Shown: piece after piece, positions 1 to 15,995 of the stretch | Position numbering within the stretch: the first letter of the stretch is position 1 | Layout of the letters: every line of letters starts with the position of its first letter | Virus record (IMG/VR): IMGVR_UViG_3300028995_000083 | Span: 1-16,929 of that record | Direction: 5' to 3' (one strand) | DNA length: 16,929 nt | From: a virus | Taxonomy: Duplodnaviria > Heunggongvirae > Uroviricota > Caudoviricetes | The notes under the pieces: model-generated | Told to the model about the DNA's origin: nothing | What the model saw: the letters and a program-made list of their open reading frames with translations, nothing else | Database searches by the model: none | Translations under genes and position numbers: made by a program

Positions 1-1053
1 TTACGGGGTAATGCCAACCGCTGCCGCCACTTTGTCGCCACTTGGCAGCGTTGCCAGAGGATTGAAACGGAGCGCCGTTTCCAGATGATCCGGTGCCAGA
101 TGTGCGTAACGCATAGTCATTTTTATATCGTGGTGTCCGAGAATTTTTTGTAAGGCCAGAATGTTTCCACCCGACATCATGAAGTGCGCCGCAAACGTAT
201 GGCGCAGAACGTGTGTGAGTTGACCGCGAGGGAGCACGATAGACGTTTTTTCCATCACGGATAAAAATTGAAAATAGCAGTCTGTGAAGAAATTGAACCC
301 ATCAAGCGCCATGATCTCTTCGTAAAGCTCTTTACTGATAGGGATGCTTCTGTTTTTCTTCCCCTTCGTTCTTACAAAGGTAATTCGGTATTTGGTCACC
401 TGTGAACGAGTAAGATTTACGGCTTCTCGCCAGCGTGCGCCTGTGCTTAAGCATATCTTAACTACCAGTGCCAGAATTGGGTCCTGACGTTTGCAATCAG
501 CCAGTAATTCAACAATCTGCTCATGGGTAAGCCATGCCATCTCTTTTTCTGCGATGGTGAATTTTCGCATGTTCTCCAGTGGGTTCGGATACGACCATTC
601 GCCCAGGCGGGATAGTTCGCTAAAAACACTACTTAGATAGCTTTGCTCCAGGTTAATGGTGACCGGGCTTGCTCCTTTCTTCCATTTCTCGCTGAAGTAG
701 ATCTCACCTGTCAGGCGTTTATCTCGATAGTGGGCAAACATTTTAGAGGTTAGATCAGTTGCAAGGGGATTGCCCAGAGCGTCAACCATCAGCAGCAATT
801 TGTCATAGACATGCTGCCCAGCAGTCAGTGATTTACCATGTAGTTTGAACCATAGCTCAACCACGTCTTTCAGTGTTCGACGATCCACTGATTCACCTAG
901 CCAGGGCTTTGCTTCGGTTTCTTCCATCGTGTGACGCTCAAAAGCCAGTGCTTCGCCTTTGGTGGCGAATTGTTTACGCACACGACGCCCACTACGTCCG
1001 GCGGGGTAACATTCGCAAAGCCATTTTCCTGTGGTGAGTTTTCGTACAGCCAT
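1..1053 (-). CDS. int: Tyrosine integrase (P2/186 type)
   Basis: 350-aa product starting MAVRKLTTGKWLCECYPAGRSGRRVRKQFATKGEALAFE, typical of P2-family integrase N-termini; C-terminal region has an HxxR...Y-type catalytic layout (LRHTFAAHF...HHDIKMTMRYAHL). GGAGGG RBS before the ATG at 1053; the upstream in-frame extension to 1131 lacks an RBS. Confidence 0.9.
   Translation of the reverse strand: MAVRKLTTGKWLCECYPAGRSGRRVRKQFATKGEALAFERHTMEETEAKPWLGESVDRRTLKDVVELWFKLHGKSLTAGQHVYDKLLLMVDALGNPLATDLTSKMFAHYRDKRLTGEIYFSEKWKKGASPVTINLEQSYLSSVFSELSRLGEWSYPNPLENMRKFTIAEKEMAWLTHEQIVELLADCKRQDPILALVVKICLSTGARWREAVNLTRSQVTKYRITFVRTKGKKNRSIPISKELYEEIMALDGFNFFTDCYFQFLSVMEKTSIVLPRGQLTHVLRHTFAAHFMMSGGNILALQKILGHHDIKMTMRYAHLAPDHLETALRFNPLATLPSGDKVAAAVGITP
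19..40 (+). repeat. Candidate attL core (CGCTGCCGCCACTTTGTCGCCA), direct repeat of 14075..14096
   Basis: 21/22 identity with the copy immediately after the ogr stop codon; flanks on both sides of each copy are unrelated. Lies inside the 3' end of int. Confidence 0.55.
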
Positions 1054-1241
1054 AAAAAATGCCCTCCAATAGAGAGCATTTTTACTGTATGTATAACCAG
1101 TGTCAATGTATGAAATCCTGCGACCATACATCTCACTGAAGCCATAATGAAGTAGGCTATTCTTTTTGCTATGTGATCATGTAACTTTTGCGGTTAACCT
1201 GTGGCTCATTTTTATTTTAGGCGCAGATATAAAAGCAAAAG

Positions 1242-1433
1242 TTATCGTGAGTTTTTAGTACAGATTTTTTTGGATTTACTAATAGTTCCATCATTGCAAA
1301 CGAATTTGCCATCAGAGGTACAGTGAGAAACACCTCCCTTTTTCCCTGAGCAGGGATAATTTCTAGCATAGGTAGCTAGTGGGTTTAATAACAAAGAACA
1401 TGACAAAACCACAAAAAATACCTTACCAAGCAT
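1242..1433 (-). CDS. Small secreted or lipoprotein-like cysteine-rich protein (63 aa), putative moron in the cI-int operon
   Basis: GGGAGG RBS 5 nt before the ATG; hydrophobic N-terminal signal-like segment ([23 protein letters not shown]) then a Lys/Cys-rich mature part with 4 Cys; AT-rich relative to int and cI; same strand, between cI and int. Confidence 0.55.
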
Positions 1434-1448
1434 AATTTCCTCCCGGTA

Positions 1449-2024
1449 CTATTTAACATACTTGACTGTTAAACTTATAATTTTACCAATTATTTCAATG
1501 TCTTCTATCTTACATTCAAAGGCTCTGTTTCCACCCTCGACGAAGATTCTTCCACCGGGTAAACGAGTAATGTCACGGATCGTTATTTCGCCATCAATAC
1601 TTATTACCCATTTACCATCACGTATATCATCAAATTCCTTATCACAAATAAATTCAGAATTATTATCTGTGATTACAAAAAGATTCTTGAATGCCGACGG
1701 TAGAAATTCTCTATCGAAAATATAAAAACCGTCTTCACACAAGGCCCCATCAGATAATACATATTTAGCAACTTCCATAGTATTTGTATTACCTGAAGTT
1801 TGCTTTGAACCATGCCCGGTTGTGAGCCAATTAAGCGAGGTGCCTGTTTCAAGGGCGCACTGGATTACCCATTCTGCTGGGAATGAGTCACGCATGTAGC
1901 GTGTGGCGAGTGTACTTTTAGAGATTCCTAAATGATCGCACAACGCCTGTCGAGTCTTGAATCCATAAGCTTCTACCATGCGCTCTATGGCGCCTCGTCC
2001 GCCTTTCTCCAAATTCATGGTCAC
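1449..2024 (-). CDS. cI: CI-type immunity repressor (186 CI-like, HTH N-terminal domain)
   Basis: 191 aa, close to the size of phage 186 CI; N-terminal HTH-like segment (FKTRQALCDHLGISKSTLATRYMRD); located between int and the divergent early operon; GGAG RBS. Confidence 0.8.
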   Translation of the reverse strand: MTMNLEKGGRGAIERMVEAYGFKTRQALCDHLGISKSTLATRYMRDSFPAEWVIQCALETGTSLNWLTTGHGSKQTSGNTNTMEVAKYVLSDGALCEDGFYIFDREFLPSAFKNLFVITDNNSEFICDKEFDDIRDGKWVISIDGEITIRDITRLPGGRIFVEGGNRAFECKIEDIEIIGKIISLTVKYVK

Positions 2025-2042
2025 TCCAAGTGAACTTTTATC

Positions 2043-2071
2043 TTGACGATTTCACCGTGCGATCGTATGTT
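2043..2071 (+). promoter_or_regulatory. Candidate early lytic promoter (pR/Pe-like): -35 TTGACG, 17-bp spacer, -10 TATGTT
   Basis: Hexamers read directly in the cI-apl intergenic region, oriented toward apl about 70 bp downstream. Operators not mapped. Confidence 0.3.
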
Positions 2072-2143
2072 TATGGTGTTCACAAAATACAAACGATCCG
2101 TATTCGTCCTGATTAATCATCATTAAACGAGGAATGTTGCATC

Positions 2144-2365
2144 ATGAGACCTAACATTTCAATCACTCTTACCACGCCTCATGTGACTATTGAACGCTAT
2201 AGCGAGCTGACAGGGCTATCCATCGATACCATCAATGACATGTTGGCTGATGGACGCCTTATCCGTCACCGTCTGCGCAAAGATAAAAAACGCGAAAAAG
2301 TGATGATCAACATAGCAGCAATGACCGTTGATGCGCTTTCAGAATGCAATCTAAACCTTAATTAG
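2144..2365 (+). CDS. Apl/Cox-like small DNA-binding protein (excisionase / repressor of lysogenic promoter)
   Basis: 73-aa basic protein, first gene of the rightward early operon, divergent from cI; position and size match 186 Apl / P2 Cox. Family assignment is by synteny, not motif. Confidence 0.6.
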
Positions 2366-2397
2366 TTCGATTCTGAAATACATCAGAGGCATTGACC

Positions 2398-2907
2398 ATG
2401 TTTGATTACCAAGTTTCCAAACATCCACATTTTGATGAAGCCTGTCGTGCATTTGCACTGCGCCACAATCTGGTGCAACTGGCAGAACGTGCAGGCATGA
2501 ATGTGCAGATTCTGCGGAACAAGCTGAACCCAGCTCAGCCTCATTTATTAACCGCACCAGAAATCTGGCTGCTTACCGATCTGACTGAAGATTCAACGCT
2601 GGTAGATGGTTTTCTGGCACAGATTCATTGTCTGCCATGTGTACCGATTAATGAGGTGGCAAAAGAGAAACTGCCACATTACGTCATGAGTGCAACCGCA
2701 GAGATCGGGCGTGTTGCTGCAGGTGCGGTGTCTGGCGATGTAAAAACCTGTGCCGGTCGTCGTGATGCTATCAGCAGCATTAACTCTGTAACACGACTGA
2801 TGGCGCTGGCGGCTGTTTCATTGCAGGCCCGTTTACAGGCTAATCCTGCGATGGCGAGTGCAGTTGATACCGTGACTGGCCTCGGTGCTTCATTTGGTTT
2901 GCTGTGA
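2398..2907 (+). CDS. cII: CII-type phage regulatory protein (186 CII-like)
   Basis: 169 aa from ATG 2398 (AGAGG RBS 9 nt upstream; the TTG at 2392 in the ORF track is too close to the RBS); N-terminus [45 protein letters not shown] resembles the Phage_CII family; immediately after apl as in 186. Confidence 0.8.
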
Positions 2908-2914
2908 GGTGCTT

Positions 2915-3115
2915 ATGCTGACGAAAGAACCATCATTTGCATCGCTGCTGGTTAAACAAAGCCCGGCAATGCATTACGGCCACGGCTGGATCATGGGGGA
3001 GGATGGTAAACGCTGGCATCCGTGCCGTTCACAAGATGAATTGCTGGCAGAACTATCTACGAAAAAACGGGGGAACAAATGGCTATTGAAGGCACTGCGG
3101 CGACTGTTCCATTAA
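2915..3115 (+). CDS. Hypothetical small phage protein (at the position of fil in 186)
   Basis: 66-aa ORF from ATG 2915 with GAGG RBS; the GTG at 2885 overlaps cII and has no RBS. Function inferred from position only. Confidence 0.5.
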   Translation: MLTKEPSFASLLVKQSPAMHYGHGWIMGEDGKRWHPCRSQDELLAELSTKKRGNKWLLKALRRLFH

Positions 3116-3420
3116 GCCCCGGTGAACGCCTGAATGGACTTAATCACATTGCGGAGTTAAGGGCGAAAATTTTTGGCCTGAATATTGAGTCAGAGCTTGA
3201 GCGGTTTATTAAAGATATGCGTGATTCACGGGATATTAATAGCGAACAAAATAAACGGGCACTGGCTGCCATATTCTTTATGGCAAAAATTCCAGCTGAA
3301 CGTCATAGCATCAGCATTAATGAGCTGACCACTGACGAAAAGCGGGAGTTGATTAAAGCAATGAATCATTTTCGTGCAGTGGTGAGCTTATTTCCCAGAC
3401 GGCTAACCATGCCGAATTAA
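3079..3420 (+). CDS. Hypothetical phage early protein (113 aa)
   Basis: ORF with GGGGGAA RBS before ATG 3079; overlaps the previous gene by 37 nt; no motif recognised. Confidence 0.55.
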   Translation: MAIEGTAATVPLSPGERLNGLNHIAELRAKIFGLNIESELERFIKDMRDSRDINSEQNKRALAAIFFMAKIPAERHSISINELTTDEKRELIKAMNHFRAVVSLFPRRLTMPN

Positions 3421-3487
3421 CCAACTAATGAAATTAATGGCGTAAACCCGCCGGGCATCCCTTTATCTAAATTCAGGAGAATTGATT

Positions 3488-3721
3488 ATGCGTAATATTG
3501 AAACCCTCTCGACCAAAACCGGACCGGATGACGCAGGGCTTAATATTTTACTGACAGAGGCTCGTCTGGAAGAACGCCGGGCAAGGGCTGAAGCAATGGC
3601 AGCTCGCCTTGATAGCCTGGCGTGTCATATCACATCCCGCCAGCTAACCCACGTCGAAGCGGCAGAACTGCTTCGTGTGACTGCTGAAGCAATCCAGAAC
3701 GAAGCGCAGGAGATCCACTAA
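3488..3721 (+). CDS. Hypothetical phage early protein (77 aa)
   Basis: AGGAG RBS 7-8 nt before ATG 3488; stop overlaps the start of the next gene (TAATG). Confidence 0.6.
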   Translation: MRNIETLSTKTGPDDAGLNILLTEARLEERRARAEAMAARLDSLACHITSRQLTHVEAAELLRVTAEAIQNEAQEIH

Positions 3722-3948
3722 TGGCTGATGCAATGGATCTCGTACAGCAGCGCGTTGAAGAAGAACGCCAACGCCATATCCGTGCTGCCCGTGCCAAAAC
3801 GCCGGGCGTGTCCCGCGTGCTTTGCATTGATTGTGAAGCGCCAATTCCGCCAGCACGCCGCCGTGCCATTCCGGGTGTGCAGCTTTGCATTACCTGCCAG
3901 GAAATCGCAGAGCTGAAAGGCAAACATTACAACGGAGGTGCTGTATGA
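3721..3948 (+). CDS. TraR/DksA-family C4 zinc-finger protein
   Basis: 75 aa with CIDC-x17-CITC spacing (C-x2-C ... C-x2-C), characteristic of phage TraR/DksA-like zinc fingers; translationally coupled to neighbours. Confidence 0.8.
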   Translation: MADAMDLVQQRVEEERQRHIRAARAKTPGVSRVLCIDCEAPIPPARRRAIPGVQLCITCQEIAELKGKHYNGGAV

Positions 3949-4802
3949 GCACCATCCTGAAATGGGCGGGAAATAAAACTGCCATAATGTCCGAACTGAA
4001 AAAACATCTTCCTGCTGGCCCGCGACTGGTTGAACCTTTCGCGGGTTCCTGTGCTGTGATGATGGAGACGGATTATCCCAGCTATCTGGTTGCGGATATT
4101 AATCCTGATTTAATCAACCTCTATAAAAAGGTTGCCGCTGATTGTGAATCGTTTATATCTCGCGCCAGAGTTTTATTTGAGATCGCAAACAGGGAGGTGG
4201 CTTATTACAACATAAGGCAGGAGTTTAATTACTCAACTGAAATTACTGATTTCATGAAAGCGGTATATTTCCTGTATCTCAATCGTCACGGTTACCGTGG
4301 TTTATGTCGCTATAACAAGAGCGGGCATTTCAACATTCCCTACGGTAATTATAAAAATCCGTATTTCCCTGAAAAAGAAATTCGCGCATTTGCAGAAAAG
4401 GCCCAGCGAGCAACGTTTATCTGCGCCAGCTTTGATGAAACGCTGGCGATGTTGAAGGCGGGGGATGTGGTGTATTGCGATCCGCCGTATGACGGTACGT
4501 TTTCCGGCTATCACACTGACGGCTTCACTGAAGATGACCAGTATCACCTGGCATCTGTTCTTGAACATCGGTCATCAGAAGGACATCCGGTCATTGTTTC
4601 TAACAGTGACACATCCCTGATCCGTTCGCTGTATCGCAATTTTACTCACCACTACATCAAGGCAAAACGCAGCATCGGTGTGGCAGCTGGCGAGGGTAAA
4701 TCAGCAACAGAAATCATTGCTGTTTCCGGGCCGCGCTGCTGGGTGGGATTTGATTATTCGCGTGGCGTGGATAGTTCTGCCGTGTACGGAGTACGTGCAT
4801 GA
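3945..4802 (+). CDS. dam: DNA adenine methyltransferase (Dam-like, N6-adenine MTase)
   Basis: 285 aa from ATG 3945 (GGAGGTG RBS). Motif I-like EPFAGSCAV near the N-terminus and catalytic DPPY ([12 protein letters not shown]); N-terminus [11 protein letters not shown] is typical of Dam-family enzymes. Confidence 0.9.
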
Positions 4803-7213
4803 GTCATGCCGATATGAACAACTGCTGCGGCTTTAACGAAGCTGCCGCATCGTTCTCATGGAACAGCTCGAAAAAGGCCATTAACCCTTATCTGGACCCG
4901 GTGGAAGTTGCGCCGGTTTCTACGCTTTCAAACCTGATCACTCTGTACGCTGCCGATAACGAGCAGGAACAGCTGCGCCGTGAGGCGCTGAGTGATCAGG
5001 TCTGGGAGCGTTATTTCTTTAATGAATCCCGTGATCCTGTCCAGCGCGAAATGGAACAGGATAAGCTCATTAGTCGGGCAAAGCTGGCGCATGAGCAGCA
5101 GCGTTTTAATCCGGATATGGTCATTCTGGCGGACGTCAACGCCCAGCCTTCCCATATCAGCAAGCCGCTGATGCAACGTATTGAATACTTCAGCAGCCTG
5201 GGCAGGCCAAAGGCTTATTCCCGCTATTTACGTGAGACGATTAAGCCATGTCTGGAACGACTGGAGCATGTACGCGACAGTCAGCTATCTGCATCTTTTC
5301 GCTTTATGGCAAGCCATGAAGGGCTGGACGGCCTGCTGATCCTGCCTGAAATGAGTCAGGATCAGGTGAAACGCCTGTCCACCCTGGTAGCTGCGCATAT
5401 GAGTATGTGCCTTGATGCCGCTTGTGGCGATTTGTATGCCACCGATGACGTTAAGCCAGAAGAAATCCGCAATACATGGGAAAGGGTGGCAGCGGAAACC
5501 CTGCGTCTGGATGTCATCCCGCCTGCGTTTGAGCAACTCCGTCGGAAAAGAAACCGCCGTAAACCCGTGCCCTATGAACTCATTCCGGGTTCGCTGGCGC
5601 GTATGTTGTGCGCCGACTGGTGGTATCGGAAATTATGGAAGATGCGTTGCGAATGGCGGGAAGAGCAGTTGCGTGCTGTCTGCCTTGTCAGCAAAAAAGC
5701 ATCTCCCTATGTCAGCTATGAAGCCGTGTTGCATAAACGTGAGCAGCGCCGTAAGTCGCTGGAGTTTTTCCGTTCTCATGAACTGGTGAACGAAGACGGC
5801 GACACGCTAGACATGGAGGATGTGGTAAACGCCAGCAGCAGCAACCCTGCGCATCGCCGCAATGAGATGATGGCCTGTGTTAAAGGTCTGGAGCTTATCG
5901 CGGAAATGCGCGGTGACTGCGCCGTTTTCTACACCATCACCTGTCCGTCACGTTTCCATTCCACGCTAAATAACGGCAGGCCCAACCCGACCTGGACAAA
6001 TGCGACGGTAAGACAAAGCAGCGATTATCTGGTCGGTATGTTTGCTGCATTTCGTAAGGCGATGCACAAAGCCGGGTTGCGCTGGTATGGCGTGCGGGTG
6101 GCTGAGCCGCATCACGACGGCACAGTTCACTGGCACCTGTTGTGTTTCATGCGCAAAAAAGACCGCCGCGCCATTACAGCATTGTTGCGTAAGTTTGCTA
6201 TCCGTGAAGACCGCGAGGAGCTGGGCAATAACACGGGGCCGCGCTTTAAGTCTGAGCTGATTAACCCGCGCAAAGGAACGCCGACAAGCTACATAGCGAA
6301 ATACATCAGTAAGAACATTGACGGGCGTGGTCTGGCTGGCGAGATCAGCAAGGAAACGGGTAAATCTCTGCGTGATAACGCTGAATACGTGAATGCCTGG
6401 GCGTCTTTGCATCGTGTTCAGCAATTCCGCTTCTTTGGCATTCCGGGGCGTCAGGCTTACCGTGAACTGCGATTGCTGGCTGGTCAGGCGGCAAGGCAAA
6501 AGGGGGACAAAAAAGCAGGTGCGCCGGTACTGGATAACCCGCGCCTTGATGCCATCCTGGCTGCTGCTGATGCTGGTTGTTTTGCCACCTACATCATGAA
6601 GCAGGGCGGCGTACTGGTTCCCCGTAAATATCACCTCATCAGAACCGCTTATGAAATCAACGAAGAGCCGACCGCCTATGGCGATCACGGCATTCGTATT
6701 TATGGCATCTGGTCACCCATTGCAGAGGGCAAGATCTGCACTCATGCAGTGAAGTGGAAAATGGTTCGTAAAGCCGTTGACGTTCAGGAGGCGGCAGCCG
6801 ACCAGGGCGCTTGCGCCCCTTGGACTCGTGGCAATAACTGTCCCCTTGCTGAAAATTTGTACCAACAAGGGAAAGACAAATCAGCTGATGGGGATACCAG
6901 AACGGATATTACCCGCATGGATGACAAGGAATTGCACGATTACCTGCACAGTATGAACAAAAAAGAGCGCCGGGAACTGGCTGCAAGGTTACGCCTGGTG
7001 AAACCGAAACGGCGTAAAGACTACAAACAGCGAATTACAGACCATCAGCGACAGCAGCTCGTCTATGAACTGAAGTCCAGAGGATTTGATGGCAGCGAGA
7101 AAGAGGTCGATTTACTCCTTCGCGGCGGCAGTATTCCGTCAGGAGCAGGCCTGCGTATCTTCTATCGGAACCAGCGTTTGCAGGAAGATGATAAGTGGCG
7201 AAACCTGTATTAA
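4799..7213 (+). CDS. Replication initiation endonuclease (P2/186 gene-A-like rolling-circle initiator)
   Basis: 804 aa; HUH-type motif ([10 protein letters not shown]) and a paired-tyrosine segment (YIAKYISKN) consistent with P2 gpA-family proteins; start overlaps the dam stop (ATGA). Confidence 0.9.
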
Positions 7214-7305
7214 TTACGCGGGTTAACAATTCGTGCTCTTAATAATACCAGGCATATCAGGCTGATGAACGTAAAAAAACGTTTTACATCAGTAAGATTA
7301 TTATA

Positions 7306-7325
7306 TACTGTAAATATAAACAGTG
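7306..7325 (+). promoter_or_regulatory. LexA (SOS) box TACTGTAAATATAAACAGTG
   Basis: Perfect CTGT-N8-ACAG core with TA/TG flanks; part of a larger palindrome (TACTGTAAATAT-N11-ATATTTACAGTA, 7306..7340); about 40 bp upstream of the 7366 ORF, downstream of a TTTACA -35-like hexamer at 7283..7288. Confidence 0.7.
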
Positions 7326-7365
7326 GTTATATTTACAGTATTGCTTTGGTGTCATAGGAGGAAAG

Positions 7366-7554
7366 ATGCAGGACTATTTTTTGGAGTCTTTGAAGCTCCA
7401 GCGCATTGATTTTTTTCTTAAGCTTGTAGCGGCTAGTGAGTGTAGTGATGAAGAGAAGGGGCTGGCTTTGCAGTGGGTTTCTGAACTAACAGATGAACTC
7501 ATGGCAAAAATCAGAACCCACGAATACAACCGCTCAATGGATGTCATCAGTTGA
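7366..7554 (+). CDS. Small SOS-controlled protein, possible Tum-like antirepressor N-terminal module
   Basis: 62 aa, strong AGGAGG RBS, directly downstream of the LexA box and upstream of the DinI-family gene; function inferred from position by analogy with 186 tum. Confidence 0.5.
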   Translation: MQDYFLESLKLQRIDFFLKLVAASECSDEEKGLALQWVSELTDELMAKIRTHEYNRSMDVIS

Positions 7555-7565
7555 GGTGACTTTTT

Positions 7566-7799
7566 ATGCGCATTGAAATAATGATCGATAAAGAGCAGAA
7601 GATTAGCCAGTCTACCCTGGACGCCCTTGAATCCGAGCTTTACCGCAATCTGCGTCCTCTGTATCCCAAAATGGTAATTCGTATCCGCAAAGGTAGCTCT
7701 AACGGTGTGGAACTGACCGGATTGCAACTGGACGAAGAAAGAAAACAAGTGATGAAAATTATGCAGAAGGTGTGGGAAGACGACAGCTGGCTGCATTAA
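7566..7799 (+). CDS. dinI: DinI-family protein (DNA-damage-inducible protein I-like)
   Basis: 77 aa; MRIEIMIDKEQKISQSTLDALESELYRNL...VWEDDSWLH parallels E. coli DinI in length and pattern (MRIEV...ETWE..DW); GAGGTG RBS; in the LexA-controlled transcription unit. Confidence 0.85.
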   Translation: MRIEIMIDKEQKISQSTLDALESELYRNLRPLYPKMVIRIRKGSSNGVELTGLQLDEERKQVMKIMQKVWEDDSWLH

Positions 7800-8069: not shown

Positions 8070-8285
8070 ATGTCAAGCATCGCCGCATTTAGCCTGGGTA
8101 ACCCAGTTGAACGTCTGGCAAGGGTTCTTAAAGAGAACCAGGACAAACTCAATCTTAGTAAAGATGGTTTTGTGTCCGTAGACTTGTCTAACAAAAGAGC
8201 AATGGATGCCATCAAGGCACAGATGGATAAGCTTGAAGGCATCAAAACGAGCACTGTAAAAGAGAAAACTAATAGAACCAGATAA
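8070..8285 (+). CDS. Hypothetical small soluble protein (71 aa), first gene of cargo operon
   Basis: Strong RBS (AAAGGGGGAG) before ATG 8070; Lys-rich, no TM segment; stop overlaps the start of the next gene (TAATG); AT-rich. Confidence 0.6.
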   Translation: MSSIAAFSLGNPVERLARVLKENQDKLNLSKDGFVSVDLSNKRAMDAIKAQMDKLEGIKTSTVKEKTNRTR

Positions 8286-9127
8286 TGGCAACATTACTTT
8301 TAGCAGTGATTTTGGTTAGTGGTTTTATTTATGTAAACCTATCACTTTCAACAAGATACCGATATAAGCGTTCCAACGGCTGGGACGCTTATTTTTTTGT
8401 GGCTGCCTGGGGTATCGTTTTTTTTCTCCTTGGCGGTTTTTTCACCTTTATTTTGAACGTCAGCGGAGGGTTTCGTTGGCTGGCTAATGCCTTGAATCTA
8501 ACACCTGACAGTTTTAATGGCATGTTGTCTTCATCGAAAGACAAACTTCAAAGAATAAATGAAATCAAACAGATAGCATGGGTTATGATTTCAATTGTCC
8601 TCGCTGCGATTTCAGGTTTTGGAAATAAGTTACGCACATCACGTGGAGATCGTCGTTGGGATGCCTTAGCTAAAGCTGTGGGTAATAACGCTTTCGAATC
8701 ATTACTCATGGAAGCGTCCGCAAGACAGTTTCCGATCATAGCAACTCTGTCGTCTCGCAAAATCTATGTTGGTCTTGTTACTTGTCCGGCGTTAGAAAAC
8801 GGGCTTTCAGAGCACCTTGAACTTCTCCCGATGTTAAGCGGATATCGGGATAAAGATGATCTAACGATTAGTATCACGACTAACTATCACCAACATTATC
8901 TTGATAGTGGTGTGATAAGTGGAATGTCTCGGCTTAATATCGAAGATTTCCGTGTGCTCATACCAAAAGATGAGGTTGAAACAATTTCGTTTTTTGATAC
9001 TGAGACATATAACAAATTTAAAGAAAATGAAGCCAGGGATAGAAAGAACTGTCGAAAGATTGATAGTAAAAGTGCATCTTCGCGCAGCAAGCGTGCAGCA
9101 GATGCTGAGTCAAATGATCGTGCATGA
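8285..9127 (+). CDS. Hypothetical membrane protein (280 aa; three predicted N-terminal TM helices plus about 165-aa charged cytoplasmic domain)
   Basis: Hydrophobic segments at about residues 2-19, 36-57 and 96-112, then a soluble Lys/Arg/Asp-rich domain; translationally coupled to the 8070 gene; AT-rich; no family recognised. Confidence 0.7.
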   Translation: MATLLLAVILVSGFIYVNLSLSTRYRYKRSNGWDAYFFVAAWGIVFFLLGGFFTFILNVSGGFRWLANALNLTPDSFNGMLSSSKDKLQRINEIKQIAWVMISIVLAAISGFGNKLRTSRGDRRWDALAKAVGNNAFESLLMEASARQFPIIATLSSRKIYVGLVTCPALENGLSEHLELLPMLSGYRDKDDLTISITTNYHQHYLDSGVISGMSRLNIEDFRVLIPKDEVETISFFDTETYNKFKENEARDRKNCRKIDSKSASSRSKRAADAESNDRA

Positions 9128-9175
9128 CTATGCTGCATGAGATCGCATGATCGTTTGAGGATCGTTTTTGCTAGG

Positions 9176-9199
9176 GCCCGCCAGAACTGGCGGGCTTTC
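9176..9199 (+). terminator. Candidate intrinsic terminator after the two-gene cargo operon
   Basis: GC-rich hairpin GCCCGCCA-gaac-TGGCGGGC followed by only TTT; about 50 nt after the 9127 stop. The short T tract makes this tentative. Confidence 0.4.
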
Positions 9200-9244
9200 G
9201 CGTAGATCATGCACCTGCATGAAAACTACTACATAAAGCGGGCA

Positions 9245-9257
9245 GGCGTGGCGGGGA
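9245..9257 (+). other. Possible cos-site remnant (GGCGTGGCGGGGA)
   Basis: Isolated GC-rich block inside AT-rich DNA; from memory it matches the first 13 nt of the 19-nt cohesive end of 186/P2-family phages (GGCG[T/A]GGCGGGGAAAGCA...), after which similarity is lost. Recollection not verified. Confidence 0.35.
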
Positions 9258-9364
9258 TACGAGCGCGCGCAACAGTGTAACAATCTGGATCTAATGTGAT
9301 ATAGTTACTGTAAATATTATTAACTATTCTTATATGCATTATTAAATATTTTAATGGAGCGTTT

Positions 9365-11038
9365 ATGGAAAAATATCAAGATGAGGAATATGTAGATGAT
9401 TTAACTGAGCGTGTTTTTCTCATTAAGCAACAACTGGAAGCGGGAAAACTAAAAATAGCTCATCATCTTGTAGAAGGTTTTATTGAAAGTTTTAAAAGAA
9501 TAAGGCTGCGACAGGATGGTAAAGTTGACCCTTCTACTGTTGATGGCAGAATAAGGGCTATGGGAGCAGCGGTTAATCACTTTTTAGAAAGAGAAGATAT
9601 AAAAAACAAATACTCTATTCAGGACTTGCAAAGTTCTTACTTTAATATTCTTTTTAGTAATTTTGGCGAGTTGTTTTATCTGATGAAAAAAACTAATGCA
9701 ACGCCACATAAAGCATCAAGTTTTTTTTCTCAACAAGAAGAATATGTTAAGCAAATAGAAGATATTTTTCCTGAGTTATATAATCAGGTAATAGAGTTTT
9801 GGCAGGTAACATCCGATATTGGTGTAATACATTTGCAGGATGGTTCTCAGTTTAAAGCTAATTTTTCTGGTGACTTATTTCCTGCATTTGATGAGAATGC
9901 TGTCTCTATTGCAGGGTTGTATGTTGATACTATTTCACTTCCATGTCCTATATTAAGAGTCGGTCGTCTCTATGAAAAGTCAGATAAGGCTGAGTTTACA
10001 AGGATACTTCTGAAGCATGTCCTAACATGTATGACATATAAAGAAGTAGCGCTTGAAGATATAGAGCCAGCAATAGTATTAATTTTGCCGGATAGAAGAG
10101 ATTTTGAAACTGAGAGCAAAAAAAATTTGATGAGTTTTTGTGAGCCTTATGCTCTGACTCATGCGCAATATCTCTATGATCGACGGTTCGAAAGCTACGA
10201 TGAATTTCGAGATTTTAGTTATTCGATGAATGATATTGATGCTGTTCTTAAAAATATTAAGAGAGCAGATAGACTTATTTTTGATACAGCATGGGGGCTA
10301 AATCCAAAAACTCAATTAGAAAAACTACTATCTGATAAAAAAAGAATATCACGTAATGTTGTTGGTGATCATGCTGGAATGGAGGTTTTCCTTTCCTGCA
10401 TTGGAAGAATGCCGCAAGCCTATTCAGCAAAATGTAATGCACAAGAACTTGGTAGTACTCCATATATAAATGCAGACACATCTTGGCTCTATTATACTTG
10501 GCTTATTGAGTACGAATCTCTTAATTTTGATGTCAATGATATTGAACTAAAAAATTTGCATATGGTTCATGCGTTATCTGCTGGTATGCAAGATGGTTTT
10601 TCATGGTTAGGAAATGTACCGGTCAATAAAATAATTGAGTTGAGACGTAACAAATTGATGGAGGATGTAAGATCCATCTTATCAAATGGTGTTGACTCTT
10701 TAATCAATTCTTCGGCAGAGAGCTTTTCGAGGACAACGCAAAAAGTAATTGATAATGTAGACCGGGCTTTTATTGAACATCAAAGGATTCTTGCAAAAGC
10801 CCAAAAAGAGAAATTGAGAATTTACGGACTAGATGTCCTACCATGTATCGCAAATGGTGCTATAGCAATTGCTGGAGCGCTGACTGGCAATACTACTTTA
10901 ACGGCGTTAAGTGCAGGCCTTGGAGTAATAGGTATTCCGAGTATTAGTGATATCAAATCTAAATTTAAGCAGAGGCAAGAGAAGCTTGATGCCTATCAAC
11001 GTTCTGTTACAGGTATACTCTTTAGCCATAAATCTTAA
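9365..11038 (+). CDS. Hypothetical 557-aa protein with C-terminal glycine-zipper-like hydrophobic segment; candidate defense / abortive-infection effector
   Basis: Long uninterrupted AT-rich ORF with TGGAG RBS; no Walker A, no RT YxDD, no HTH recognised; hydrophobic Gly/Ala-rich stretch at residues about 486-524 (LDVLPCIANGAIAIAGALTGNTTLTALSAGLGVIGIPSI); PD...ESK string at residues 242-252; flanked by terminator-like hairpins. Confidence 0.75.
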   Translation: MEKYQDEEYVDDLTERVFLIKQQLEAGKLKIAHHLVEGFIESFKRIRLRQDGKVDPSTVDGRIRAMGAAVNHFLEREDIKNKYSIQDLQSSYFNILFSNFGELFYLMKKTNATPHKASSFFSQQEEYVKQIEDIFPELYNQVIEFWQVTSDIGVIHLQDGSQFKANFSGDLFPAFDENAVSIAGLYVDTISLPCPILRVGRLYEKSDKAEFTRILLKHVLTCMTYKEVALEDIEPAIVLILPDRRDFETESKKNLMSFCEPYALTHAQYLYDRRFESYDEFRDFSYSMNDIDAVLKNIKRADRLIFDTAWGLNPKTQLEKLLSDKKRISRNVVGDHAGMEVFLSCIGRMPQAYSAKCNAQELGSTPYINADTSWLYYTWLIEYESLNFDVNDIELKNLHMVHALSAGMQDGFSWLGNVPVNKIIELRRNKLMEDVRSILSNGVDSLINSSAESFSRTTQKVIDNVDRAFIEHQRILAKAQKEKLRIYGLDVLPCIANGAIAIAGALTGNTTLTALSAGLGVIGIPSISDIKSKFKQRQEKLDAYQRSVTGILFSHKS

Positions 11039-11043
11039 TGTAG

Positions 11044-11074
11044 AGGGCCGAGGTATTCGGCCCTTAGTTTTATA
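11044..11074 (+). terminator. Intrinsic terminator after the 557-aa gene
   Basis: Hairpin AGGGCCG-aggtatt-CGGCCCT followed by T-rich TAGTTTTATAT, 6 nt after the stop codon. Confidence 0.6.
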
Positions 11075-11220
11075 TGAAACTGTATGGCATGAATTTTATT
11101 ATGTCATCTTTGAGCCATTTATTGAGTTCTTCTATTCTGTTTTGTAGCGGTATCAATTCATTACGCATAAAAACCTTACTAGCCTTCTCCACATCCCCAA
11201 ATCCCCCAACATTATTCGGC

Positions 11221-12186
11221 ATTATCCCCATCATTTGCGGCGGCACTCGGTGTGCTGCCATCATGTCATCCCGGCTCACGTTCTTGATAGGTCTTGTGGT
11301 TACTGCACTGGCGGGTGTGGCGCTGGTTGTCTGGAAATACTGGCAGCCCATCACCGCATTTCTCGGTGGCGTGGTGGAAGGATTCAAAGCGGCGGCAGGT
11401 CCTGTCAGTGCCGCGTTCGAACCGCTTAAGCCTGTGTTCCAGTGGATTGGCGACAAAGTACAGGCGCTGTGGGGCTGGTTTACTGATCTGCTGACGCCCG
11501 TTAAGTCGACCTCTGCCGAACTGCAGAGTGCAGCGGCAATGGGGCGACGATTCGGGGAGGCTCTGGCGGAAGGGCTGAATATGGTCATGCATCCGCTGGA
11601 CTCCCTGAAATCCGGCGTTTCCTGGTTGCTGGAGAAACTTGGCATTGTCAGTAAAGAGGCCGCAAAGGCGAAACTGCCGGAAAGCGTGACGCGTCAGCAA
11701 CCTGCGACGGTGAATGCAGACGGTAAAGTGATGATGCCATCGGGTGGTTTTCCGTCATGGGGATATGGCTTTGCGGGGATGTATGACAGCGGCGGGTATA
11801 TCCCGCGCGGGCAGTTTGGCATCGTCGGTGAAAACGGGCCGGAAATTGTTAACGGCCCGGCAAATGTGACCAGCCGGAGAAATACAGCTGCACTGGCTGC
11901 CGTTGTTGCCGGAATGATGGGTGTTGCTGCTACGCCAGCAGAGCTTCCACCGTTGCACCCTTTGGCACTTCCCGCGAAAGGCGGTGAAGCGATGGTGAGT
12001 CGTGCAGCCACTGTGCTGCCCGTTCAACGGATTGAGGCACCGATGCAGATCATCATTCAGACGCAGCCAGGACAAAGTGCGCAGGATATTGCGCGGGAGG
12101 TGGCCCGCCAGCTTGATGAACGTGAACGCAGGCTGAAGGCAAAAGCCAGGAGTAACTACAGCGATCAGGGGGGATACGACGCATGA
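11221..12186 (+). pseudogene. 5'-truncated tail tape-measure gene (P2 gpT / 186 G-like), C-terminal fragment only
   Basis: Translation from about residue 50 of the 11074 ORF onward is Ala/Gly-rich with tape-measure character (AFLGGVVEGFKAAAGPVSAAFEPLKPVFQWIGDKVQALWGW...) and is followed by U and D as in the P2 FETUD operon; upstream 150 nt is AT-rich with no RBS; a full tape measure would be about 800 aa. 5' boundary approximate. Confidence 0.7.
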
Positions 12187-13765: not shown

Positions 13766-13855
13766 TTCTTCGCAATGGAGAACTTTTAAGTTTGCAAAAT
13801 GGAATAATGCGGTATCATTATTGTGAATTTAGCAAAAATGGGGAGAACTCGAAAA

Positions 13856-14074
13856 ATGATGATTTGCCCACTGTGTGGAAGTGCCGCCCATACTCGCAGC
13901 AGTTTTCAGGTATCTTCATTGACCAAAGAGCGTTACAACCAGTGCCAGAACATTAACTGCAGCCATACTTTTGTTACCCATGAAACTTTTGTTCGTTCGA
14001 TTGCAACGCCAAAAGAGTCAAATCCGGTTCAGCCGCATCCAATGAAATCAGGACAGGTGGCGCTCTCTCTTTGA
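13856..14074 (+). CDS. ogr: Ogr/Delta-family zinc-finger late transcription activator
   Basis: 72 aa from ATG 13856, the same length as P2 Ogr; CPLC...CQNINC matches the Ogr C-x2-C-x22-C-x4-C zinc-binding pattern (compare P2 Ogr CPLCQHAAH...YHQCQNVNC). Confidence 0.85.
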   Translation: MMICPLCGSAAHTRSSFQVSSLTKERYNQCQNINCSHTFVTHETFVRSIATPKESNPVQPHPMKSGQVALSL

Positions 14075-14150: not shown

Positions 14151-14197
14151 CAACAAAAAACCCATCAACCTTGAACCGAAATGGCGGGGTTGATGGG
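14151..14197 (-). terminator. Candidate intrinsic terminator downstream of ybjL (minus strand)
   Basis: Inverted repeat CCCATCAACC / GGTTGATGGG (14161..14170 and 14188..14197) with a T6 run immediately after the stem on the minus strand; about 110 nt beyond the ybjL stop. The loop is long. Confidence 0.45.
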
Positions 14198-14309
14198 CTC
14201 CACAAAATGGGGACATCAAAGAAAAGCAGTGGCACTAATTAAGACTGATGCCCTGCGGAAAAGTTCTGCGGTTGTGCAAAAAAATTTCATTTTCAGGGCA
14301 ACTTCAGTT

Positions 14310-15995
14310 TTATCCTAATCCTGGCCATACCATGACGATGATTGTCCCTGCCAGCGTCAGCAGGACGTTGGCGATTGCGTAGGTGCCCGCGTAGCCCAGC
14401 GCAGGGATGTTACTGCGAGCTGTATCACTGATGATCTCCATTGCCGGCGCGCAGGTGCGTGCGCCCATCATTGCGCCGAACAACAGTGCGCGGTTCATTC
14501 GCAATACATAAGCACCGAACAAGAAACAGATAACCACGGGCACAAGACTGACAATTAATCCGGCAATCAACATCTGACCGCCAATCGCGCCCAGGCCGTT
14601 ATTAATACCGCTACCGGCGCTCAGACCAACGCCTGCCATAAACACCATCAAGCCGAACTCTTTCACCATGCTTAATGCACCTTGCGGAATGTAACCGAAG
14701 GTCGGGTGGTTAGCACGCATAAAGCCCAGCATAATTCCGGCGAATAACAACCCGGCAGCGTTCCCCATGCCGAAACTGAATGTGCTGAACTGGAAGGTGA
14801 TCATCCCGATCATCAGCCCAATAACAAAGAAGGCGCAAAATGCCAGCAGGTCAGTGACCTGGCTGTGAATCGAGATAAAGCCGATGCGATCGGCGATGGT
14901 TTTTACGCGACGGGCATCACCGCTGACTTGTAAAACGTCACCTTTGTTAAGCACGACGTTGTCATCTATCGGCATCTCAATCTGGCTACGAATGACGCGG
15001 TTAAGGAAGCAACCGTGATCGGTCAACTTCAGTTGTGCGAGACGTTTACCTACAGCGTTATGGTTTTTAACGACCACTTCTTCAGTGACGATACGCATGT
15101 CGAGAAGGTCACGATCGAAAACTTCTTTACCGTTACGGAAGCTGGGATCGAGTCGGGCATGGGCGTCGGGATAGCCTACCAACGCTATTTCATCGCCCAT
15201 TTGTAGCACGGCATCACCGTCTGGATTTGCCAGAATCCCGTTACGTCGAATACGTTCAATGTAGCAGCCGGTTTGTCGATAAATACCCAGTTCACGCAGA
15301 TTTTTGCCGTCGGTCCAGGCCACCAGCTCCGGGCCGACGCGATAGGCGCGGATCACCGGTAAATAAACCTTACGGTTGGCATCAGTGTCCAGGCCACGTT
15401 CGCGGGCGATTTGCTGGGCGCTGGTCTGTAAGTCCTGATGCTGCAATTTCGGCAAGTAACGCGCACCAACAATCAAACTCACCAGACCGATTAAATAGGT
15501 TAAGGCATACCCGAGGCTCAGATTATCCAGTGCCAGTGAGAGCTGCCTGCTTTCCATGCCGGAATGACGCAGTGTATCGCCAGCACCGACCAGAACCGGT
15601 GTCGACGTCATAGAGCCTGCTAACATACCGGCCGTCAGGCCAATATCCCAGCCAAACAGCTTACCTAACCCTAAGGCGATCACCAGCGCACTGCCAACCA
15701 TCACCAGTGCTAACATTAGGTAATTTTTCCCATCGCGAAAAAAAATGGAAAAAAAGTTCGGTCCGGCTTCGACCCCGACGCAGAAAATAAACAGCATAAA
15801 GCCAAGATTAAGCGCATCGGTGTTAATGCTGAAATGTTGTTGGCCTAATAACAGCGATACGACTAAAACGCCAATGGAATTACCCAGTTGGATCGAACCA
15901 AGTCGTAACTTTCCGAGACATAGCCCAAGCGCGAGGACCACAAATAATAACAGAATGTAATTCCCATTTAACAATTCGGCGACGTTTATATTCAC
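14310..15995 (-). CDS. ybjL: Putative transport protein YbjL (AAE-family membrane transporter)
   Basis: 561-aa product [39 protein letters not shown]... recognised as E. coli YbjL; membrane domains flank a central soluble region; GTG start as given by the ORF track. Confidence 0.9.

What the first reader, a model, noticed from the sequence alone, without database searches (positions are those of the whole stretch)
7283..7799. SOS-controlled antirepressor-like module: palindromic LexA operator followed by a split Tum/DinI pair
A consensus-quality LexA box (CTGT-N8-ACAG at 7308..7323) sits inside a larger perfect inverted repeat of the 12-mer TACTGTAAATAT (7306..7317 and 7329..7340), overlapping promoter-like hexamers. 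Downstream are a 62-aa ORF and a separate DinI-family ORF. In phage 186 the LexA-repressed tum gene encodes a single antirepressor whose C-terminal part is DinI-like, so here the module appears split into two cistrons. This predicts that the defective prophage is still DNA-damage inducible, and that the DinI-like protein could also modulate host RecA.
Basis: partly seen in the sequence, partly recalled or inferred. Interest (0 to 1): 0.5.

Follow-up and report, generated by a model that had tools for sequence, protein, structure and literature searches.

The report
LexA-controlled split Tum antirepressor/DinI operon
This is the DNA-damage switch of a 186/Fels-2-type P2-like prophage: a LexA-repressed promoter driving a small antirepressor gene and a DinI-like gene. 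It is real and intact, but it has already been described and genetically tested in near-identical prophages.

Summary
A LexA box (7306-7325, 17/20 to consensus) lies in a 35-bp palindrome. A 62-aa ORF (7366-7554) and a DinI-family ORF (7566-7799) follow.

- The 62-aa protein is 61/62 identical to E. coli HS ECHS_RS04495. That is the "tum" gene whose in-frame deletion abolishes mitomycin induction of prophage DuoHS, as does lexA(Ind-).
- It is also 61/62 identical to Fels-2 STM2728.
- The split tum (tumA/tumB) is already annotated in PSP3 and discussed for Fels-2.
- A profile of the ORF62 family matches residues 5-48 of 186 Tum (E 3.6e-9). Pairwise BLAST finds nothing.

What I add:
- The "larger inverted repeat" is a colicin-type pair of overlapping LexA boxes. 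It is nearly identical to the operators of ColE1-like and cloacin-like plasmids. 186 and PSP3 have a single box.
- In relatives, the LexA box and a TTTACA-17-TACTGT promoter always accompany the small gene. DinI is missing in 13 of 33 species-level loci. The 62-aa gene is therefore the core unit.
- The window's prophage has lost about 18 kb of late genes. Derepression cannot yield virions.

Ordinary biology. The one practical point is an annotation gap: the gene is called "hypothetical protein" in many genomes.

The parts
7283..7288 (+). -35-like hexamer TTTACA of the tum promoter (p95 equivalent)
   Evidence: It lies 17 nt upstream of TACTGT. TTTACA or TTCACA is present 16-18 nt upstream of the LexA box in most of the 33 species-level loci (about 27) and in 186, where it is annotated as the p95 -35. 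This rests on analogy and conservation. The transcription start has not been mapped.
7306..7311 (+). -10-like hexamer TACTGT, the left half-site of LexA box 1
   Evidence: The same hexamer is annotated as the p95 -10 in phage 186, where it also starts the LexA site.
7306..7325 (.). LexA box 1 (TACTGTAAATATAAACAGTG), 17/20 to consensus
   Evidence: 0 of 200 shuffles have such a site. It is invariant in DuoHS and Fels-2. A high-scoring box (15-19/20) is present in all intact relatives.
7321..7340 (.). LexA box 2 (CAGTGGTTATATTTACAGTA), 15/20 to consensus. It is offset 15 bp from box 1, and the 16-bp cores share one base (7323).
   Evidence: The architecture and sequence match colicin E1-like and cloacin-like operators. 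Colicin operators bind two LexA dimers (PMC2994835). A partner box with at least 14/20 at +15 is present in about 23 of 33 species-level loci. Among window, DuoHS and Fels-2, only two spacer bases vary.
7356..7361 (+). Shine-Dalgarno site AGGAGG of the 62-aa gene
   Evidence: Read from the sequence. It is conserved as (T)AGGAGGGAA(G/A)ATG in nearly all related loci.
7366..7554 (+). tumA-type antirepressor gene (62 aa), homologous to the N-terminal part of 186 Tum
   Evidence: Member of phrog_698 (3.6e-38), with weaker hits to phrog_8554 and phrog_1993, the PSP3 TumA family. The family profile matches 186 Tum residues 5-48 (E 3.6e-9; hhalign 95%). It is 61/62 identical to ECHS_RS04495, the tum gene deleted in DuoHS. 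AF2 predicts a two-helix hairpin, pLDDT 85.
7553..7559 (+). Shine-Dalgarno site GAGGTGA of the DinI-like gene, overlapping the tumA stop codon (7552-7554)
   Evidence: Read from the sequence. It lies 6 nt before the ATG at 7566. This suggests one bicistronic mRNA with possible translational coupling, which is an inference.
7566..7799 (+). DinI-like gene (77 aa), the tumB equivalent
   Evidence: PF06183 5.4e-23. phrog_189 positions 71-148. 40% identity to 186 Tum residues 71-145. It matches E. coli DinI structures 1ghh and 7ywa at E 4e-6.
1449..2024 (-). 186-type CI immunity repressor, the presumed target of the antirepressor
   Evidence: 33% identity to 186 CI over 175 aa (8e-38). 100% identical to DuoHS CI over 189 aa.

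Best explanation
This is the SOS operon of a Fels-2/DuoHS-type (186-like, P2-family) prophage.

In undamaged cells, LexA occupies two overlapping SOS boxes (7306-7325 and 7321-7340). These cover the -10 element and the start region of the promoter TTTACA-17-TACTGT.

DNA damage activates RecA. LexA cleaves itself, and a bicistronic mRNA is made.

Its first product is a 62-aa two-helix protein homologous to the N-terminal part of 186 Tum. It binds the 186-type CI repressor (1449-2024, minus strand) and stops it from binding its operators, so the early lytic operon is derepressed. That operon carries apl, cII, fil, the dam methylase gene and replication gene A.

The second product is a DinI-like protein. 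It corresponds to the C-terminal half of Tum and to the truncated Tum products of 186. It most likely acts on RecA filaments to tune the SOS signal, and it is dispensable for the switch itself.

Basis of each step:
- Shown here: the operator, the homologies, the synteny, and their conservation across relatives.
- Shown in the literature for a near-identical prophage: induction needs this small gene and cleavable LexA.
- Inferred: direct TumA-CI binding, occupancy by two LexA dimers, and the RecA effect of the DinI-like protein.

This copy has lost the portal-to-tape-measure block. Induction can therefore give at most derepression, excision and replication, not virions or lysis.
For: Operator:
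- Searches show the site is present and non-random.
- the operator differs from DuoHS and Fels-2 only at two spacer bases of box 2.
- the 47-bp operator matches 939 plasmid records. The top seven hits are prophage-like copies. All three small Col-type plasmid hits examined lie about 40 bp upstream of colicin E1-like or cloacin-like genes. CTGTA.ATA.AA.CAGTGGTTATA..TACAGTAT is invariant across them.

Conservation:
- in 33 loci from different Enterobacterales species, every intact homologue has the LexA box. About 27 have TTTACA or TTCACA 16-18 nt upstream.
- The one truncated copy (L039) also has a decayed box.
- members only 35-43% identical still sit right after gene A and have a 17-18/20 LexA box 15-21 nt before the start codon.
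- 85 of 120 viral-contig matches to the double-box pattern are followed by a TumA-like ORF.

Homology:
- link ORF62, the 186 Tum N-terminus and PSP3 TumA through profiles.
- establish the DinI part.
- establish the CI.

Function:
- (PMC12055606): an in-frame deletion of ECHS_RS04495, or lexA G85D, abolishes mitomycin C induction of DuoHS. ECHS_RS04495 is the 189-bp gene between gpA and the DinI-like gene. The window's protein is 61/62 identical to it.
- (PMC3121763): Fels-2 and PSP3 have tum split. In PSP3 the upstream gene carries the antirepressor activity.
- the GenBank annotations of 186 tum/p95/LexA and of PSP3 tumA/tumB.
Against: - No experiment exists on this exact copy.
- Pairwise BLASTP of ORF62 against 186 Tum or PSP3 TumA finds nothing. 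The profile link to PSP3 TumA alone is weak (4.3 bits; hhalign probability 8.6%).
- The standard sigma-70 scan does not call the promoter. TACTGT matches TATAAT at only 3 of 6 positions.
- Box 2 has a degenerate inner half-site (GTGG).
- Direct CI binding by a split-type TumA has not been published, as far as I could find. The PSP3 result is a personal communication cited.
- The DuoHS deletion could in principle affect expression of the downstream DinI-like gene.
- Bunny et al. 2002 could not be read.
Confidence: 0.88

Rival explanations
1. The DinI-like protein, alone or as an obligate complex with the 62-aa protein, is the real inducer. For example, it could boost RecA coprotease activity or contact CI. 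The 62-aa protein would then be only an accessory or adaptor.
For: In 186 both parts are in one polypeptide. The two genes are adjacent, 9-12 nt apart, in 20 of 33 species-level loci. The SD site of the DinI-like gene overlaps the tumA stop codon, which suggests coupling. A polar effect of the DuoHS deletion is not formally excluded.
Against: 13 of 33 species-level loci, and all three distant members examined, have the LexA-controlled small gene but no DinI within 1.5-3 kb. In PSP3 the antirepressor activity maps to the upstream gene. The DuoHS deletion was in-frame and fused the start and stop codons. The intercistronic gap varies from 9 to 12 nt, so the reading frames are not kept in register.
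Confidence: 0.05
2. In this virion-less remnant the module no longer serves its own element. It matters mainly in trans, as an SOS-induced antirepressor acting on the CI of co-resident or incoming Fels-2/DuoHS-type phages (prophage crosstalk). Alternatively, it is simply not yet decayed after a recent deletion.
For: The late-gene deletion is present. Its junction is absent from 5,426 complete E. coli genomes, which suggests a recent event. The early region is otherwise intact and 97.8% identical to DuoHS. Trans-acting antirepressor crosstalk is documented for the Gifsy and Fels-1 prophages. The same module occurs in 1,125 of 5,426 E. coli genomes, some with 2-3 copies.
Against: This concerns biological role, not mechanism, so it is compatible with the main explanation. 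The cognate CI, int, apl-like and A genes are all intact in cis. Nothing is known about co-resident prophages in the source genome.
Confidence: 0.1
3. The 35-bp palindrome is the operator of some regulator other than LexA, such as a phage repressor. Its resemblance to SOS boxes would then be incidental.
For: It is a long, near-perfect palindrome. Box 2 on its own is only 15/20 to consensus.
Against: The invariant positions are exactly the LexA half-sites CTGT and ACAG, while the spacers vary. It is almost identical to colicin operators known to bind LexA. Relatives with a single box keep a canonical 17-19/20 LexA site. lexA(Ind-) blocks induction in DuoHS. 186 p95 is annotated as LexA-controlled.
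Confidence: 0.02

Closest known systems
tum (ECHS_RS04495) and the DinI-like gene of E. coli HS prophage DuoHS; STM2728 and STM2726.1 of Salmonella phage Fels-2
   Same: Same position after gene A and the same promoter/operator; only two spacer bases of box 2 differ. The 62-aa protein is 61/62 identical to each. The DinI-like protein is near-identical, and CI is 100% identical to that of DuoHS. For DuoHS, the need for this gene and for cleavable LexA has been shown genetically.
   Different: The window copy sits in a prophage that has lost the portal-to-tape-measure genes. It also carries different cargo genes downstream of the DinI-like gene.
tumA/tumB of Salmonella phage PSP3
   Same: Same two-cistron layout under a LexA box after gene A. 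tumB is a DinI homologue. The tumA annotation reads 'similar to 5' end 186 tum; UV induction of prophage'. ORF62 gives a weak hit (E 0.0022) to the PSP3 TumA family, phrog_1993.
   Different: PSP3 has a single LexA box of 19/20. Its tumA and tumB are in the same frame, separated by a stop codon. The window's two genes are 11 nt apart in different frames. TumA of PSP3 and ORF62 are not alignable pairwise.
Tum antirepressor and the p95 SOS operon of coliphage 186
   Same: LexA-repressed promoter with TACTGT as both the -10 element and the box half-site. Position after gene A. The N-terminal part is homologous to ORF62, and the C-terminal part is DinI-like. The CI is of the 186 type. 186 also makes a separate DinI-like product from an internal GTG start.
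   Different: 186 fuses both parts into one 146-aa protein and has one LexA box. It also lacks the W conserved in the ORF62 family: ALNLIAEI against ALQWVSEL.
Dual overlapping SOS boxes of colicin operons (ColE1, cloacin/klebicin-type plasmids)
   Same: Two 20-bp LexA boxes offset by 15 bp. The sequence CTGTA.ATA.AA.CAGTGGTTATA..TACAGTAT is shared. These operators are known to bind two LexA dimers and give very tight repression.
   Different: In the Col plasmids the boxes lie downstream of a TTGACA-type promoter and control a toxin gene. Here box 1 itself supplies the -10 element, and the product is an antirepressor.
LexA-controlled dinI-antirepressor operons of the Gifsy prophages (GfoA/GftA)
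   Same: SOS-controlled small antirepressors co-transcribed with a dinI homologue.
   Different: The gene order is reversed (dinI first). The antirepressors and repressors are unrelated in sequence, and the phages are lambdoid.

Membership tests
LexA (SOS) operator | A 20-bp site close to TACTGT(AT)4ACAGTA, with CTGT-N8-ACAG and an AT-rich spacer | tested here: met
   Box 1 at 7306-7325 is 17/20, and 0 of 200 shuffles have such a site. The core is at 7308-7323.
LexA (SOS) operator | Overlaps the promoter or start site of the regulated gene | tested here: inconclusive
   TTTACA-17-TACTGT is conserved and parallels the annotated 186 p95. The generic promoter scan does not call it, and no transcription start data exist.
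LexA (SOS) operator | LexA binding, and derepression when LexA is cleaved or absent | not testable with these tools
   Published for the near-identical DuoHS only at the level of induction: lexA(Ind-) blocks it. For Fels-2, lethality of a lexA null is attributed to the prophage (reference title).
Colicin-type dual overlapping SOS boxes | A second LexA box offset by 15 bp, so that the 16-bp cores share one base | tested here: met
   Box 2 at 7321-7340 is 15/20.
Colicin-type dual overlapping SOS boxes | Occupancy by two LexA dimers | not testable with these tools
   Known for colicin operators. Not measured for any tum operator that I could find.
Tum / TumA antirepressor of 186-like phages | Sequence homology to the N-terminal part of 186 Tum | tested here: met
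   Pairwise BLASTP is negative. The family profile gives 35.7 bits, E 3.6e-9, over Tum residues 5-48. hhalign gives 95% probability.
Tum / TumA antirepressor of 186-like phages | Sequence homology to PSP3 TumA | tested here: inconclusive
   BLASTP finds nothing. HMM score is 4.3 bits. hhalign E is 0.0039 but the probability is 8.6%. ORF62 hits the PSP3 TumA PHROG at E 0.0022. The motif C-x3-[DE]-x2-LAL is shared.
Tum / TumA antirepressor of 186-like phages | First gene of a LexA-controlled operon immediately downstream of replication gene A, in a phage with a 186-type CI | tested here: met
   gpA is at 4799-7213. CI is 33% identical to 186 CI. The same synteny is seen.
Tum / TumA antirepressor of 186-like phages | Required for SOS induction; binds CI and blocks its DNA binding | not testable with these tools
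   The requirement is shown for the 61/62-identical DuoHS gene. CI binding is shown only for 186 Tum (Shearwin 1998, cited).
DinI family (PF06183) | Pfam score above the gathering threshold over the whole domain | tested here: met
   81.5 bits against 24.2, covering profile positions 1-63 of 63. It scores below the NCBIfam equivalog cut-off for chromosomal DinI (41 against 111 bits). It is therefore a phage paralogue, not dinI itself.
DinI family (PF06183) | Binds RecA filaments and modulates coprotease activity | not testable with these tools
   The C-terminal acidic Trp-containing helix (KVWEDDSW) aligns with that of DinI structures 1ghh and 7ywa. No functional data exist for this paralogue.

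The most novel reading that the evidence does not exclude
The intact LexA-TumA-CI switch in this virion-less remnant may have been co-opted.

The trigger would be DNA damage, or SOS set off by an attacking phage. The remnant would then excise and be amplified by gpA. Transcription would read through from the tum promoter into the adjacent variable cargo genes, the 71-, 280- and 557-aa ORFs at 8070-11038. No terminator is detected between 7799 and 8070, and the 557-aa protein weakly resembles the candidate defence protein DitB. The remnant would then work as an SOS-triggered defence island.

A lesser novel point concerns the operator. The colicin-type double LexA operator in this phage clade may set a higher induction threshold than the single box of 186 and PSP3. 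It may also have been exchanged between Col plasmids and P2-like phages.
Probability: 0.1. Interest if true: 0.5.

Novelty: already known. Interest (0 to 1): 0.18.

Why it matters
Scientifically it matters little. It is another copy of a described and genetically validated induction module.

Two practical points follow.

1. Annotation gap. The antirepressor gene is called 'hypothetical protein' in the sampled E. coli genome annotations (all 30 listed rows). The module occurs in about a fifth of complete E. coli genomes (1,125 of 5,426). It has no Pfam or NCBIfam model, and its PHROGs (698, 8554, 1993) are marked 'unknown function'. A single family model linked to 186 Tum would let pipelines recognise SOS-inducible P2-like prophages.

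2. Operator diversity. The single-box versus colicin-type double-box difference among tum promoters is a ready-made natural series. It could be used to test how LexA operator architecture sets the threshold and noise of prophage induction.

Tried and rejected
- Pairwise BLASTP of ORF62 against 186 Tum and PSP3 TumA gave no alignment. This is a sensitivity limit, and the profile methods overturned it.
I used the single protein instead.
- Searching the ORF62 profile against PDB sequences gave nothing.
- Foldseek of the AF2 model against the PDB gave only generic helical hairpins, none with E at or below 0.001. This was uninformative.
- The terminator-like hairpin at 7543-7560 between the two cistrons folds no better than shuffles (z = -0.46). 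I rejected it as an attenuator.
- Rfam found no RNA family in the region.
- PADLOC gave no defence-family hit for either protein.
- The 30-aa ORF at 7265-7357, which overlaps the operator, was treated as spurious.
- Bunny et al. 2002 and Christie & Calendar 2016 are not in the library. A literature search for 'tumA/tumB' returned only unrelated papers.
- I did not compute a heterology index, because I do not have the Lewis et al. matrix. I report matches to the consensus instead.
- The position frequencies come partly from loci selected by the double-box pattern itself. I used them only for spacer variability.

Full report
**1. What is in the sequence**

The region lies just downstream of a P2-family replication gene A (4799-7213; PF05840, 3.7e-127).

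The pattern CTGT-N8-ACAG occurs once in the 16.9-kb window, at 7308-7323. That loose pattern is not rare by itself: 38 of 200 shuffles contain one. The full 20-mer TACTGTAAATATAAACAGTG (7306-7325) is more telling. It is the only site within three mismatches of the LexA consensus TACTGTATATATATACAGTA, and none of 200 shuffles has such a site.

The arms at 7305-7322 and 7324-7341 are 94% complementary, with 15 perfect bases each. It is the only perfect inverted repeat of 12 nt or more with a short gap in the window. Only 2 of 300 resampled sequences contain one.

Two ORFs follow:
- A 62-aa ORF at 7366-7554, with AGGAGG four bases before the ATG.
- After an 11-nt gap and in another frame, a 77-aa ORF at 7566-7799. 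Its GAGGTGA ribosome-binding site overlaps the first ORF's stop codon.

**2. The two proteins**

The 77-aa protein is a clear DinI-family member.
- PF06183 scores 81.5 bits against a cut-off of 24.2.
- It matches phrog_189 positions 71-148.
- It is 40% identical to residues 71-145 of 186 Tum.
- It matches the solved E. coli DinI structures (1ghh, 7ywa).
- It falls below the NCBIfam equivalog threshold for chromosomal dinI. It is therefore a phage paralogue.

The 62-aa protein has no Pfam, NCBIfam or PADLOC match. It belongs to phrog_698, marked 'unknown function'. BLASTP against 186 Tum or PSP3 TumA finds nothing.

Profile methods do find the link. I scanned 1.84 billion cluster representatives with HMMER and obtained 66 representatives, nearly all 55-75 aa. 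A profile built from 29 diverse members matches residues 5-48 of 186 Tum at 35.7 bits (E 3.6e-9 in a database of 10,002). The best of 10,000 shuffled decoys scores 10.7 bits. hhalign gives 95% probability.

PHROG profiles give the same picture. 186 Tum hits phrog_1993, phrog_8554 and phrog_698. ORF62 hits the same three in the reverse order. PSP3 TumA belongs to phrog_1993.

AlphaFold2 predicts a two-helix hairpin (helices 2-23 and 28-61, pLDDT 85). The conserved Cys lies in the turn. Fold search is uninformative for so small a fold.

**3. It is already known**

- The PSP3 GenBank record annotates tumA as 'similar to 5' end 186 tum; UV induction of prophage'. It annotates tumB as 'similar to dinI and 3' end of 186 tum'.
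- The Fels-2 record carries STM2728 (61/62 identical to ORF62) followed by a DinI-family gene 'similar to TumB [PsP3]'.
- Lemire et al. 2011 (PMC3121763) state that Fels-2 and PSP3 have tum split in two. They add that in PSP3 the upstream gene carries the antirepressor activity.
- The Phollow paper (PMC12055606) is the most direct evidence. It deleted 'tum', locus tag ECHS_RS04495, in the E. coli HS prophage DuoHS, and it made lexA(Ind-). Either change abolishes mitomycin C induction.
- In the HS genome, ECHS_RS04495 is the 189-bp 'hypothetical protein' between the replication endonuclease and the DinI-like gene. The window's ORF62 is 61/62 identical to it. The CI repressors are 100% identical. 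The promoter/operator differs only at two spacer bases.
- The window's CI is of the 186 type, 33% identical (8e-38).

**4. The operator**

The 35-bp palindrome is best read as two LexA boxes. Box 1 is 7306-7325 (17/20 to consensus). Box 2 is 7321-7340 (15/20). They are offset by 15 bp, so their 16-bp cores share base 7323.

I recalled this arrangement from colicin operons and tested the idea. The 47-bp operator finds 939 plasmid records, mostly small mobilisable plasmids. I examined three of the small-plasmid hits. All three lie about 40 bp upstream of a colicin E1-type pore-former gene or a cloacin-type tRNase bacteriocin gene. In the alignment, CTGTA.ATA.AA.CAGTGGTTATA..TACAGTAT is invariant between prophage and Col operators.

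[quoted passage not shown] It also reports that they show no detectable basal expression.

By contrast, 186 and PSP3 have one box of 18-19/20.

Box 1's left half-site TACTGT is the hexamer annotated as the p95 -10 in 186. A TTTACA lies 17 nt upstream, at 7283-7288. The generic promoter scan misses this pair, because TACTGT matches TATAAT at only 3 of 6 positions.

**5. Comparative test**

A protein-based scan of one genome per species returned 33 loci from Escherichia, Citrobacter, Enterobacter, Klebsiella, Kluyvera, Raoultella, Serratia, Pantoea, Erwinia, Tatumella and others.

- Every intact homologue has a LexA box of 15-19/20. About 27 of the 33 also have TTTACA or TTCACA 16-18 nt upstream.
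- About 23 of 33 have the double box.
- Eight loci, all Pantoea, Erwinia or Tatumella, have a single box.
- The only truncated copy (L039, 20 codons) also has a decayed box.
- A DinI-like gene follows 9-12 nt downstream in 20 loci. It is absent within 1.5 kb in 13.
- The variable gap means the two frames are not kept in register.

Members only 35-43% identical (P0147, P0172, P0168) also sit directly after gene A. They have a 17-18/20 LexA box 15-21 nt upstream and no DinI, and they are followed by convergent ogr and portal genes.

In IMG/VR, 85 of 120 exact matches to the double-box pattern are followed by a TumA-like ORF.

Among phage records that match 186 Tum, only about 28 of 126 carry the fused 146-aa form, and all of those are over 91% identical to 186.

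I conclude that the LexA-controlled small gene is the conserved core. DinI is a frequent but optional passenger, and the 186 fusion is the exception.

**6. Mechanism and its status**

The operator, the homologies, the synteny and their conservation are shown here. The requirement for the small gene and for cleavable LexA is shown in the literature for a near-identical prophage.

Three steps are inferred:
- Direct binding of this split-type TumA to CI. This is demonstrated only for 186 Tum.
- Occupancy of the operator by two LexA dimers.
- An effect of the DinI-like protein on RecA. The 186 record describes its truncated, DinI-like Tum products as modulating SOS induction.

I considered and rejected a role for the intercistronic hairpin.

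**7. Context**

Compared with DuoHS, the window keeps int through the DinI-like gene (42-7797, 97.8% identical). It then keeps only about 200 bp of the portal gene's 3' end (11092-11289). After that it jumps into the last third of the tape-measure gene (from 11286) and continues through U, D, ogr, rybB and ybjL. About 18 kb of head, lysis and tail genes are missing.

The junction is absent from 5,426 complete E. coli genomes, so the deletion looks recent. 'Inducible' can only mean derepression, excision and replication.

**8. Verdict**

The residual value is threefold: recognising the colicin-type double operator in this clade, showing that DinI is optional, and flagging the annotation gap.

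Noticed in passing
window 11092-11289 and 11286 onward: This is a deletion junction. About 200 bp of the portal gene's 3' end is joined directly to the last third of the tape-measure gene, with a 4-nt overlap between the two alignments. About 18 kb of late genes (Q to T) is missing relative to DuoHS. The junction is not found in any of 5,426 complete E. coli genomes. The 370-aa ORF at 11074-12186 is therefore mostly the 3' part of the tape-measure gene, extended upstream across the junction.
   Followed up: partly
window 8070-11038: Three cargo ORFs (71, 280 and 557 aa) occupy the variable slot between the DinI-like gene and the portal gene. This is the tin/old hotspot position of P2. They differ from the cargo of DuoHS and Fels-2. 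The 557-aa protein hits the PADLOC candidate defence protein DitB weakly (7e-10). The other two are PHROGs of unknown function (9843, 3630). No terminator-like site lies between 7799 and 8070, and a good one follows at 11043-11065. They may therefore be read through from the SOS promoter, as orf97 is in 186.
   Followed up: partly
window 14152-14230 (-): The RybB sRNA gene (Rfam RF00110, 105 bits) lies between the prophage's ogr gene (13823-14074) and ybjL (14310-15995, minus strand). The prophage is therefore inserted in the rcdA-rybB-ybjL interval, as DuoHS is in E. coli HS.
   Followed up: no
proteins P0147, P0149, P0152, P0155, P0164, P0169, P0172, P0177, P0181 (alignment A4): Many distant TumA-like proteins carry an extra C-terminal tail of the form K-N/S-P-Q-x-G-G-...-G-x-x-L/F-Q that ends exactly at the C-terminus. 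The window's protein and 186 Tum lack it. Its meaning is unknown.
   Followed up: no
L039 (Siccibacter turicensis), 1501-1679: This is the only pseudogenised homologue, with a stop after 20 codons. Its LexA box has also decayed to 13/20. This is consistent with joint loss of the gene and its operator.
   Followed up: no
L080 and L089 (IMG/VR contigs), double-box sites: These are AT-rich, colicin-type double LexA boxes (CTGT...ACAGTGGTTATTTATACAG). In L080 the site is followed not by a TumA-like gene but by a 225-aa ORF of unknown type. In L089 no ORF was found downstream. They are possibly another SOS-controlled phage gene class.
   Followed up: no
window 7366-7554; E. coli genome annotations: The validated antirepressor gene is annotated 'hypothetical protein' in all 30 listed RefSeq E. 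coli hits, and the module occurs in 1,125 of 5,426 genomes. Some phage and UniRef records call it 'levan regulatory (domain) protein', which appears to be a mis-annotation.
   Followed up: partly
window 3885-4802: A D12-class Dam-type adenine methylase gene (PF02086, 1.2e-76) sits immediately upstream of gene A and overlaps it. This matches Fels-2 and DuoHS. In 186 a PAPS-reductase-like orf occupies that position.
   Followed up: no
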